From assembly GCF_013167455.1 (NCBI RefSeq), contig NZ_CP038328.1: a stretch of 64,000 nucleotides of DNA; one strand, given 5' to 3'. Position numbers: made by a program. Source of the DNA: Escherichia coli O157:H7 (lineage in GTDB: Bacteria > Pseudomonadota > Gammaproteobacteria > Enterobacterales > Enterobacteriaceae). Shown piece after piece: positions 35,104 through 38,100 of the stretch. Positions within the stretch are counted from its first letter, which is position 1, and each line of letters begins with the position of its first letter.

Positions 35104-38100
35104 CGCTTCATAGCCTTTCTCCTTGCCGGATGGCGGGTAAGAGGCTAACATCTGAATTGCTTGGTTCATTCGTTGGCCTCGGTTGATAGAAATATCGGTC
35201 GGGGCCTTCGTCTTTCTGATTCCCGGTTAGCCTGAAAACAGAAAGTCTCAGGCACCCGTGAGCATCCTATGTGGTTTCCTTAGGGACGAAAATAATCACC
35301 TGACGAAATTGCGTGCTGTTTTCCAGAATTTTTCGTCATTCGGGTTAGCCAGTTTAACCATTCGTTACTCTCTTCATTCCAATGGCATTAATCTTCTCTG
35401 CAATAATTGTTGTAAAAATGTGACGCAAAGAGGCTTTTAGTCGTAAGTAATTACCGTCAAATGCCGATGACTTTCTATCAGGAGTAAACCTGGACGAGAG
35501 ACAACGGTAATGAATACAACTCCCTCACAGCGATTAGGTTTTTTGCATCACATCAGGTTGGTTCCGTTATTTGCCTGCATTCTAGGCGGTATCTTAGTTC
35601 TATTCGCATTAAGTTCAGCCCTGGCTGGCTATTTCCTCTGGCAGGCCGATCGCGATCAGCGTGATGTTACTGCGGAGATTGAGATTCGGACCGGGTTAGC
35701 GAACAGTTCAGATTTTTTGCGTTCAGCCCGGATCAATATGATTCAGGCCGGGGCTGCGAGTCGTATTGCGGAAATGGAAGCAATGAAGCGAAATATTGCG
35801 CAAGCCGAATCGGAGATTAAACAGTCGCAGCAAGGTTATCGTGCTTATCAGAATCGGCCGGTGAAAACACCTGCTGATGAAGCCCTCGACACTGAATTAA
35901 ATCAACGCTTTCAGGCTTATATCACGGGTATGCAACCTATGTTGAAATATGCCAAAAATGGCATGTTTGAAGCGATTATCAATCATGAAAGTGAGCAGAT
36001 CCGAACGCTGGATAATGCTTATACCGATATTTTGAACAAAGCCGTTAAGATACGTAGCACCAGAGCCAACCAACTGGCGGAACTGGCCCATCAGCGCACC
36101 CGCCTGGGCGGGATGTTCATGATTGGTGCGTTTGTGCTTGCCCTGGTCATGACGCTGATAACATTTATGGTGCTACGTCGGATCGTCATTCGTCCACTGC
36201 AACATGCCGCACAACGGATTGAAAAAATCGCTAGTGGCGATCTGACGATGAAGGATGAACCGGCGGGTCGTAATGAAATCGGTCGCTTAAGTCGTCATTT
36301 ACAGCAAATGCAGCATTCACTGGGGATGACCGTAGGGACTGTTCGACAGGGTGCGGAAGAGATTTATCGTGGCACCAGCGAAATTTCAGCTGGCAATGCG
36401 GACCTGTCATCTCGCACCGAAGAACAAGCGGCGGCTATCGAACAAACTGCCGCCAGCATGGAGCAACTCACTGCGACGGTGAAACAGAATGCGGATAACG
36501 CGCATTATGCCAGCAAACTGGCGCAAGAGGCTTCTATTAAAGCCAGCGATGGCGGGCAGACGGTTTCCGGTGTAGTAAAAACGATGGGCGCTATCTCCAC
36601 GAGTTCGAAGAAAATTTCTGAGATCACCGCCGTCATCAACAGTATTGCTTTCCAGACGAATATTCTGGCACTGAATGCTGCCGTTGAAGCTGCGCGAGCG
36701 GGTGAGCAAGGGCGTGGATTTGCCGTTGTCGCCAGCGAAGTACGGACACTCGCAAGCCGCAGCGCCCAGGCGGCAAAAGAAATTGAAGGCTTGATCAGTG
36801 AATCAGTCAGGTTAATTGACCTGGGATCGGATGAGGTGGCAACGGCCGGGAAAACCATGAGCACTATTGTTGATGCCGTCGCGAGTGTCACACATATCAT
36901 GCAGGAAATTGCCGCCGCCTCGGATGAGCAAAGTAGGGGCATAACGCAGGTTAGCCAGGCGATTTCTGAAATGGATAAGGTGACGCAACAGAATGCTTCT
37001 CTGGTAGAAGAGGCCTCAGCGGCGGCGGTGTCCCTTGAAGAACAGGCGGCACGATTAACTGAGGCGGTGGACGTATTCCGTCTGAACAAACAATCTGTGT
37101 TGGCAGAACCTCGCGGAGCGGGTGAACCAGTTAGTTTCGCTCCGGTGTGAAAATGTTAAAGGAGGGATCGACAGATCCCTTCACCTTTCAGAACGGCATT
37201 GATTTTCGAATAGCGTTAATCATCAACTGGCAACCAGAAGAGAACGTCGCATCTACGCGGGTCAGTATTCCAATCGGTTCGCCTGCACCATGTCCCGGAA
37301 CAGGCAGGGCCACCAGCGTGGCATGACGCAGGTCGTCTTTTACCGCGCCAGAAGGGACAAACCACACGTAGTCGTATTCAACCGTAAGTTGACGAGATAG
37401 CGAAGCAGACAGCGTTTCGATACAACCCGAAGGAATTTTACATCCCTGGCTCTGTACTAATGCATCTGAATGCTGGCGTGGCGCAGTGCCTTCTGGTGAT
37501 ACAACGACCGGCCATTCCAGCACCCGGCTTAGCGTTACGTTCTCCTGAAGTAGCGGATGATTAGGGCGGACAACCAGCTTCAGCGATTCAAGAAACAGCA
37601 GTTCGTAATTAAGCCCGGTCATCAGTTCAGGATCTGACATCCGACCAATGCCGATATCGATTTCCCCGGTTTTCAAACCCGCCAGAATCATAGGGTTACT
37701 CATTGTCGCAACTTGCAAGGTCGTCTCTTTTTGTTGCTGATGAAACTGACCTATAACCGAAGGTAATATCCCCAGTGCCGCAGTAGGTAGTGCACCAACC
37801 CTGACGACATCATTATTAGGACCTTCTTTACGATGAAGCGACTGTCCGGCAGTGTTGATGGCGTCAAGTACTCTGACTGCATGCGTTAAAAATTGTTCGC
37901 CGGGTAAGGTAAGTTGCGCCCCCTGACGACCACGCTCAAACAAGCGAGCGCCCGTCAGCTGCTCCAGTTCATTTAATGTCTTAGAGAGCGCAGGTTGACT
38001 CAAATTAAGGGTTTCAGCCGCGCGCCCCAAAGTTCCTTGTTGTGCGACAGCTACGAATGTATGAAGGTGGCGCAAACGGATGCGCTGACTAAACAGACTA

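What the first reader, a model, noticed from the sequence alone, without database searches (positions are those of the whole stretch)
35444..35470. Sigma-28 promoter in front of trg
TAAGTAAT-N11-GCCGATGA matches the FliA consensus closely, in keeping with trg being a late flagellar/chemotaxis gene.
Basis: partly seen in the sequence, partly recalled or inferred. Interest (0 to 1): 0.2.

Follow-up and report, generated by a model that had tools for sequence, protein, structure and literature searches.

The report
Known FliA promoter of trg

Summary
The window is E. coli O157:H7, and the ORF at 35510-37150 is trg. The sequence TAAGTAAT-N11-GCCGATGA sits exactly at 35444-35470, 39 nt before the ATG. 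"Matches closely" is true for the -10 octamer (7/8) but not for the -35 octamer (4/8; core TAAG against TAAA). A FliA weight matrix built without trg ranks the site 2nd of about 128,000 positions. Sequence alone is only moderately significant (0.13-0.26 equal hits per shuffled window).

Function is already published for K-12, which has identical -35 and -10 boxes:
- A FliA ChIP-seq peak carries this very motif.
- trg RNA falls from 108 to 4 in a fliA deletion.
[quoted passage not shown] New here: 77 of 80 Trg-relative loci from other Enterobacterales carry a FliA-type site in the same place and strand, against 2-5 of 80 in controls. The TAA and GCCGATG blocks are conserved and the spacer is not. 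A CRP half-site (TGTGA, in the 22-mer 35416-35437) is also conserved.

Verdict: observation confirmed, interpretation supported, already known, low interest.

The parts
35416..35437 (+). CRP binding site (22-mer AAATGTGACGCAAAGAGGCTTT). The left half TGTGA at 35419-35423 is good; the right half GAGGC is degenerate. It ends 6 nt before the -35 octamer, so it is centred about -49.5.
   Evidence: Sequence. PMC2859248 reports CRP binding to the K-12 trg fragment by gel shift, CRP activation of trg100::lacZ, and the same CRP-to-promoter spacing as at aer. I checked the spacing: T of TGTGA to T of the -35 is 25 nt here and 25 nt in aer (aer reconstructed from primer sequences). A TGnGA pentamer is conserved 25-26 nt upstream of the -35 in 59 of 70 distinct ortholog upstream regions. 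The exact 22-mer boundaries are my inference.
35444..35451 (+). -35 octamer TAAGTAAT of the sigma-28 promoter (core TAAG against consensus TAAA; 4/8 to TAAAGTTT).
   Evidence: identical in K-12. It is the start of the published FliA ChIP motif. TAA is conserved at 1.7-1.9 bits across orthologs; the remaining 5 positions are poorly conserved.
35452..35462 (+). 11-nt spacer TACCGTCAAAT. Position 35461 is A here and G in K-12.
   Evidence: The spacer length is invariant across orthologs but its sequence is not conserved (mostly 0-0.5 bits per column; 0.9 at one; the T just before the -10, 35462, 1.4).
35463..35470 (+). -10 octamer GCCGATGA (7/8 to GCCGATAA; non-consensus G at 35469).
   Evidence: GCCGAT is essentially invariant (1.9-2.0 bits per column) and the non-consensus G is conserved (1.6 bits). 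The octamer is GCCGATGA/GC/GT in 65 of 70 distinct ortholog regions.
35476..35481 (+). Predicted transcription start zone (not mapped here).
   Evidence: Inference. The aer start lies 6 bp downstream of its -10 octamer, which gives 35476 here. FliA starts lie 18-23 bp downstream of motif centres (10.1101/188474), which gives about 35477-35481. The K-12 ChIP-seq peak centre 1490461 maps to window 35477.
35496..35500 (+). Shine-Dalgarno-like GAGAG, 9 nt before the ATG, within a 5' UTR of about 30-34 nt.
   Evidence: AAGAGAG is visibly shared by most aligned ortholog leaders (by eye). Inference only.
35510..37150 (+). trg coding sequence (546 aa, methyl-accepting chemotaxis protein Trg), the gene driven by the promoter.
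   Evidence: ORF; RefSeq annotation at 100% identity.

Best explanation
Positions 35444-35470 are the promoter of trg recognised by RNA polymerase carrying the flagellar sigma factor FliA (sigma-28). Region 4 of FliA reads the TAAG core of the -35 element and regions 2/3 read GCCGATGA. Transcription starts about 6 nt downstream, near 35476-35481, and gives a leader of about 30-34 nt before the trg ATG. Because FliA is free only once the hook-basal body is complete and FlgM has been exported, trg is expressed as a late (class 3) flagellar/chemotaxis gene. The promoter departs from consensus (weak -35 octamer, G in the -10). It is boosted by cAMP-CRP bound at 35416-35437, centred about -49.5, the same unusual geometry as at the aer promoter. 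trg therefore responds both to flagellar assembly and to carbon-source quality.

Shown by published experiments in K-12, which has identical boxes: FliA binding, fliA dependence, CRP binding and CRP activation.

Shown here: exact sequence and coordinates, statistical rank, and cross-genus conservation.

Inferred: the start site, the transfer of the K-12 results to this O157 strain, and the exact CRP 22-mer.
For: Sequence and coordinates. trg identity. The weight matrix built without trg ranks the site 2nd of 127,946 positions.

Published FliA ChIP-seq peak (23-fold above threshold) with motif TAAGTAATTACCGTCAAGTGCCGATGAC upstream of trg, and RNA-seq 108 to 4 in a fliA deletion: (PMC4183435). 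trg100::lacZ dependent on sigma-28 and activated by CRP, CRP gel shift, and spacing identical to aer: (PMC2859248). Microarray support: (PMC1935009). K-12 and the window are identical in both octamers.

Conservation: 77 of 80 Trg-relative loci have a site of at least 10 bits on the coding strand within 250 nt upstream, against 2 of 80 on the opposite strand and 2 and 5 of 80 in two intragenic controls. At 14 bits or more the counts are 55 of 80 against 0. The conserved columns coincide with TAA and GCCGATG, and most spacer columns are not conserved.

No sigma-70-like promoter was found in 34800-35700. A terminator-like hairpin at 35175-35206, where sokB ends in K-12, insulates trg from upstream transcription.
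Against: The -35 octamer matches only 4/8, and the whole site fails a 3-mismatch consensus search. Sequence alone is not compelling: 0.13-0.26 equal hits are expected per shuffled window. An equally scoring site antisense in azoR (23708-23735) is identical in K-12 yet absent from the 52 ChIP-seq peaks.

All wet-lab evidence is from K-12, not O157. The window differs from K-12 at four bases nearby (35434 in the CRP site, 35439, 35443, and 35461 in the spacer). I could not obtain a mapped trg start site. The right half of the CRP site is very poor (GAGGC against TCACA).
Confidence: 0.95

Rival explanations
1. The site is a genuine FliA promoter, but in this strain CRP does not act directly. Catabolite control of trg comes only indirectly, through CRP activation of flhDC and hence of FliA levels.
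For: The right half of the proposed CRP site is essentially non-consensus (GAGGC), and the window differs from K-12 inside the site (35434 C against T). A crude count of matches to the CRP consensus ranked other 22-mers in the region higher.
Against: In K-12, CRP shifts the trg fragment and activates trg100::lacZ under conditions where FliA is supplied independently of CRP. Neither the K-12 nor the O157 base at 35434 matches the consensus, so no change is expected. The TGnGA half-site is conserved at a fixed distance in 59 of 70 distinct ortholog regions.
Confidence: 0.08
2. The motif is a chance resemblance. trg is really transcribed from an unrecognised sigma-70 promoter or by read-through from the upstream hokB/sokB region, and the fliA dependence is indirect.
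For: The -35 octamer is only 4/8. Sites of equal weight-matrix score occur by chance in 12-23% of shuffled windows. At least one equal-scoring site in the window (azoR antisense) is not FliA-bound in K-12.
Against: The K-12 ChIP-seq peak centre maps about 18 nt downstream of this motif. There is a 27-fold loss of RNA in a fliA deletion. The reporter fusion is sigma-28 dependent. The conservation footprint matches the two boxes exactly. No sigma-70-like site was found. A terminator-like hairpin lies upstream.
Confidence: 0.02

Closest known systems
E. coli K-12 trg promoter (FliA/sigma-28 dependent, class 3)
   Same: The -35 octamer, the -10 octamer, the 11-nt spacer length, the 5' UTR and the start codon context are identical. 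It has the same neighbours (hokB/mokB/sokB upstream, ydcI downstream).
   Different: There are four single-base differences nearby: 35434 (in the CRP site), 35439 and 35443 (between the CRP site and the -35), and 35461 (spacer, A here and G in K-12). None lies in the recognised boxes.
E. coli aer promoter (CRP-activated sigma-28 promoter, CRP centred at -49.5)
   Same: Both are sigma-28 promoters with a non-consensus -10 (aer GCCGACAT, trg GCCGATGA). In both, a CRP site ends 6 nt upstream of the -35 octamer, with 25 nt from T of TGnGA to T of the -35.
   Different: The aer CRP site has two recognisable halves (TGCGA...TCAAA); trg has only a good left half. The aer -35 (TAAAGATA) is closer to consensus. 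The start site, in vitro transcription and alpha-CTD placement were determined for aer only.
Canonical class 3 FliA promoters (tar, tsr, fliC, motA, flgM)
   Same: Same two-block architecture, TAAA-N15-GCCGATAA, and the same position just upstream of a chemotaxis or flagellar gene.
   Different: Those promoters mostly score much higher on the same matrix (tar 28 bits, tsr 22; fliC only 15.0) than trg at about 15. K-12 trg ranks 32nd of the 52 ChIP sites. No direct CRP effect was found at them.

Membership tests
Sigma-28 (FliA) dependent promoter | -10 element resembling GCCGATAA | tested here: met
   GCCGATGA at 35463-35470, 7/8. GCCGAT is invariant in orthologs.
Sigma-28 (FliA) dependent promoter | -35 element resembling TAAAGTTT (core TAAA) | tested here: inconclusive
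   TAAGTAAT is 4/8 to the octamer and 3/4 to the core. Only TAA is conserved in orthologs. This is within the range of ChIP-bound sites such as cvrA (TAAGTAAA).
Sigma-28 (FliA) dependent promoter | Fixed 11-nt spacing between the two octamers | tested here: met
   The spacer is exactly 11 nt. The best ungapped matrix hit uses this one register in the ortholog regions.
Sigma-28 (FliA) dependent promoter | Correct strand and short distance upstream of a gene of the flagellar/chemotaxis regulon | tested here: met
   On the + strand, 39 nt from motif end to the trg ATG.
Sigma-28 (FliA) dependent promoter | FliA holoenzyme occupies the site in vivo | not testable with these tools
   Published for K-12: ChIP-seq peak 23-fold above threshold with this motif. 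Not measured in O157.
Sigma-28 (FliA) dependent promoter | Transcription of the downstream gene depends on fliA | not testable with these tools
   Published for K-12: RNA-seq 108 to 4, lacZ fusion, microarray -2.0x and +2.2x.
Sigma-28 (FliA) dependent promoter | Transcript start about 6-8 nt downstream of the -10 octamer | not tested
   The published E. coli transcription-start-site mapping paper I tried (dRNA-seq; PMC4288677, id given from memory) is not held in the paper library. The per-site table in 10.1101/188474 is an image. Predicted start 35476-35481.
Sigma-28 (FliA) dependent promoter | Conservation of the boxes upstream of orthologous genes | tested here: met
   77 of 80 loci at 10 bits or more, against 2-5 of 80 in controls.
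aer-type CRP-activated sigma-28 promoter | CRP site centred about 49.5 bp upstream of the start, ending 6 nt before the -35 octamer | tested here: met
   The 22-mer at 35416-35437 ends 6 nt before 35444. The 25-nt T-to-T distance equals that of aer, reconstructed from primers. The -49.5 label depends on the inferred start site.
aer-type CRP-activated sigma-28 promoter | CRP binds the site and directly activates sigma-28 transcription | not testable with these tools
   Published for K-12: gel shift and lacZ with FliA supplied independently of CRP.

The most novel reading that the evidence does not exclude
The departures from consensus may be selected rather than tolerated. The non-consensus G in GCCGATGA is kept in 65 of 70 distinct Trg-ortholog promoters across many genera. 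A CRP half-site accompanies the promoter at a fixed distance. This suggests trg promoters are held sub-optimal so that they stay activator-dependent. In Escherichia alone the half-site is 1 bp closer (25 nt against 26 nt), which reproduces the aer geometry (-49.5), while other genera would place CRP at about -50.5 (Kluyvera at about -57.5). That would imply lineage-specific re-phasing of CRP at a sigma-28 promoter.
Probability: 0.25. Interest if true: 0.25.

Novelty: already known. Interest (0 to 1): 0.08.

Why it matters
It matters little beyond correct annotation. The site explains why trg (the ribose/galactose chemoreceptor gene) is expressed late in flagellar assembly and preferentially on poor carbon sources. 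It is one of only two known cases of CRP directly activating a sigma-28 promoter. For the genome scan it is a useful positive control: a reader working from sequence alone recovered a real, experimentally validated promoter. Equal-scoring motifs in the same window are not all functional, which shows that the context (strand, distance to a regulon gene, conservation) carried the call, not the motif score.

Tried and rejected
1. A strict consensus search (TAAAGTTT-N11-GCCGATAA, up to 3 mismatches) does not return the trg site. It returns three other sites, so I replaced it with a weight matrix built from published ChIP motifs.
3. I tried to obtain a mapped trg start site from the published dRNA-seq study. 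That paper is not held, and the per-site table in the 2017 preprint is an image, so the start remains inferred.
4. The Salmonella FliA preprint mentions trg only in a strain genotype and gives no motif.
5. The sigma-70 promoter scan of 34800-35700 found nothing, so a sigma-70 alternative was rejected.
6. The 5' UTR hairpin CAGG-N6-CCTG folds no better than shuffles (z = -0.5). A stronger fold in Enterobacter hormaechei (z = -3.9) uses bases upstream of the predicted start, so I did not interpret it.
7. The crude consensus-match count for CRP did not single out the published CRP site, because its right half is degenerate. The assignment rests on the published binding data, the spacing and the conservation.
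8. Two scripts failed because the K-12 locus file had not yet reached the sandbox. I used the DNA search on the locus instead.

Full report
**What is there**

The window is Escherichia coli O157:H7. An 801-nt query around the finding matches O157 genomes at 100% identity and is present in 5416 of 5426 complete E. coli genomes. RefSeq annotates the 546-aa ORF at 35510-37150 as trg, the methyl-accepting chemotaxis protein Trg. Upstream lie hokB (with mokB and sokB in K-12), and ydcI is convergent downstream.

The sequence reads TAAGTAAT (35444-35451), TACCGTCAAAT (35452-35462), GCCGATGA (35463-35470) on the + strand. The motif ends 39 nt before the trg ATG.

**Is it more than chance?**

Against the octamer consensus TAAAGTTT-N11-GCCGATAA, the -10 matches 7/8 but the -35 only 4/8. 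The site was not returned by a search allowing up to 3 mismatches, while three other places in the window were. So "matches closely" is fair for the -10 and generous for the -35.

I built a position weight matrix from the 52 FliA ChIP-seq motifs of Fitzgerald et al. 2014 (PMC4183435, Table 2), leaving trg out.
- The site scores 15.5 bits with all 51 remaining motifs and 16.7 bits with the 24 strongly bound ones.
- It ranks 2nd of 127,946 positions with either matrix.
- Shuffled windows give 0.26 and 0.13 equal-or-better hits per window.

As a blind scan that is borderline. The site becomes convincing only with context: correct strand and a position immediately upstream of a chemoreceptor gene.

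One caution comes from the same window. An equal-scoring site antisense inside azoR (23708-23735) is base-for-base identical in K-12, yet it is not among the 52 ChIP-seq peaks.

**Published experiments**

The K-12 motif listed for trg in PMC4183435 Table 2 is TAAGTAATTACCGTCAAGTGCCGATGAC.
- It is the window's sequence except for one spacer base (35461 is A here, G in K-12).
- The ChIP-seq peak is 23-fold above threshold.
- The peak centre (1490461 in NC_000913.2) maps to about window 35477.
- trg RNA-seq expression falls from 108 in motile MG1655 to 4 in a fliA deletion, flagged significant.

Hollands et al. (PMC2859248) showed that a trg100::lacZ fusion depends on sigma-28 and is activated by CRP. 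CRP shifts the trg fragment in vitro. The spacing between the CRP site and the promoter elements is identical to that at aer, where CRP is centred at -49.5.

Zhao et al. (PMC1935009) reported trg down 2.0-fold in a fliA deletion and up 2.2-fold after sigma-F induction.

**Anatomy and mechanism**

The K-12 and O157 upstream regions differ at only a few bases. None lies in either octamer, and the 5' UTR is identical.

The CRP 22-mer is AAATGTGACGCAAAGAGGCTTT (35416-35437). It ends 6 nt before the -35 octamer.
- The distance from T of TGTGA to T of TAAG is 25 nt.
- I obtain the same 25 nt for aer by reconstructing its sequence from the mutagenic primers in the paper's supplement.
- The left half-site is good; the right half (GAGGC) is degenerate.

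At aer the transcript starts 6 bp downstream of the -10 octamer. FliA start sites generally lie 18-23 bp from the motif centre (10.1101/188474). Both rules predict a trg start at about 35476-35481. That gives a leader of about 30-34 nt with a GAGAG Shine-Dalgarno-like element at 35496-35500. I could not retrieve a mapped start site, so this step is inferred.

No sigma-70-like promoter is detected in 34800-35700. A terminator-like hairpin at 35175-35206, where sokB ends in K-12, separates trg from upstream transcription.

The mechanism is therefore as follows. FliA holoenzyme recognises TAAG and GCCGATGA, which couples trg to completion of the hook-basal body through FlgM export (established knowledge of the flagellar cascade). 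cAMP-CRP at about -49.5 recruits or stabilises the holoenzyme at this sub-consensus promoter.

**New evidence from related genomes**

A scan of one genome per species found 548 Trg relatives and kept the best 80, with 59-90% protein identity. They include Escherichia, Citrobacter, Enterobacter, Kluyvera, Kosakonia, Pantoea, Mixta, Dickeya and Serratia.

I scanned the 250 nt upstream of each with the trg-free matrix.

| Threshold | Coding strand upstream | Opposite strand | Intragenic control 1 | Intragenic control 2 |
|---|---|---|---|---|
| 10 bits or more | 77 of 80 | 2 of 80 | 2 of 80 | 5 of 80 |
| 14 bits or more | 55 of 80 | 0 | 0 | 0 |

I then anchored 70 distinct regions on the hit.
- Information content is 1.7-1.9 bits at TAA and 1.9-2.0 bits at GCCGAT.
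- It is 1.6 bits at the following non-consensus G.
- It is about 0-0.5 bits at most spacer columns (0.9 at one, and 1.4 at the T just before the -10).
- The -10 octamer is GCCGATGA in 48 regions, GCCGATGC in 9 and GCCGATGT in 8.
- The -35 tetramer is TAAG in 39, TAAT in 20 and TAAC in 6.

Some of the more distant loci (about 60% identity) may be paralogous chemoreceptors rather than strict Trg orthologs. That does not change the result for the 70-90% identity set.

**CRP site conservation**

A TGnGA pentamer lies 26 nt upstream of the -35 T in 56 of the 70 regions. It lies at 25 nt only in the three Escherichia sequences. In Kluyvera it is about 33 nt away (counted by eye for L029). In Pantoea and Mixta the right half is a good TCTCA or TCCCA.

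So the CRP-plus-FliA module is ancient. Escherichia carries a 1-bp deletion inside the site that gives the aer-like register. I did not pursue what this means functionally.

**Comparison with what is known, and verdict**

This is the K-12 trg promoter, in an O157 genome, with both boxes unchanged. It belongs to the sigma-28 promoter family and, within it, to the two-member aer/trg class directly activated by CRP. It is already known. Interest is low.

The only mildly novel residue is the conserved sub-consensus -10 G and the lineage-specific CRP register. I rate this as a low-probability, low-interest lead.

Noticed in passing
window 55926-55953 (- strand): An exact copy of the published weak intragenic FliA ChIP-seq motif inside ydcU (GCTGGGAATAAACCATATTGCCGATAAA; 3-fold above threshold in K-12; no expression change in a fliA deletion).
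   Followed up: partly
window 23708-23735 (+ strand, antisense inside azoR): The FliA-like site CAAATTTCACATCGGTAATGCCGATAAA scores 14.9 bits (below trg) on the 51-site matrix and 17.0 (above trg) on the strongly bound set. It is identical in K-12 but absent from the 52 published FliA ChIP-seq peaks. It shows that motif score alone does not predict binding.
   Followed up: partly
window 147-174 (+ strand): The best FliA matrix hit in the window on the 51-site matrix (TAAAGGAGAAGTTCAGTTAGCCGATAAA, 17.7 bits; only 13.3 on the strongly bound set; 3 mismatches to the octamer consensus). It lies just beyond the 3' end of nifJ/ydbK (294-3818, - strand). I did not check whether it is present or bound in K-12.
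   Followed up: no
window 34962-35215 (hokB 34962-35111 on the - strand; hairpin 35175-35206 on the + strand): The hokB/mokB/sokB type I toxin-antitoxin locus lies directly upstream of the trg promoter. A 14-bp-stem terminator-like hairpin followed by a T-rich tail coincides with where sokB ends in K-12. sokB and mokB are not annotated in the O157 RefSeq record.
   Followed up: partly
L005-L082, about 25-33 nt upstream of the -35 element of trg orthologs: The CRP half-site TGnGA is 26 nt upstream of the -35 T in 56 of 70 distinct ortholog regions. It is 25 nt upstream only in Escherichia (a 1-bp deletion inside the site) and about 33 nt upstream in Kluyvera. Pantoea and Mixta keep a near-consensus right half (TCTCA).
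   Followed up: partly
window 35469, and the same column in L003-L082: The non-consensus G of the -10 octamer (GCCGATGA against GCCGATAA) is conserved in 65 of 70 distinct ortholog promoters. This suggests selection for a sub-optimal -10.
   Followed up: partly
L005-L066, about 10-30 nt downstream of the -10 element; window 35480-35492: Many non-Escherichia trg leaders carry an inverted repeat GCGTG-N4/5-CACGC, followed by a shared AAGAGAGTCGA before the start codon. E. coli has CAGG-AGTAAA-CCTG at the same place. The E. coli hairpin is not better than shuffles (z = -0.5).
   Followed up: partly
window 32752-33753 (- strand): The gap gene (gapC) is an intact 333-aa ORF in this O157 genome, whereas K-12 annotates gapC as a pseudogene.
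   Followed up: no
window 28470-30158 and 9650-15364: Four small hypothetical genes lie between hrpA and ydcF that K-12 lacks (K-12 has a gap of about 270 nt there). The ydbA region is two large CDS here (a proline-rich protein and an autotransporter barrel) but is disrupted by IS2 and IS30 in K-12. No paa genes are annotated in the first 38.6 kb of the window (ydbL is followed directly by the ydbA-like CDSs), whereas K-12 has the paa operon immediately upstream of ydbA.
   Followed up: no
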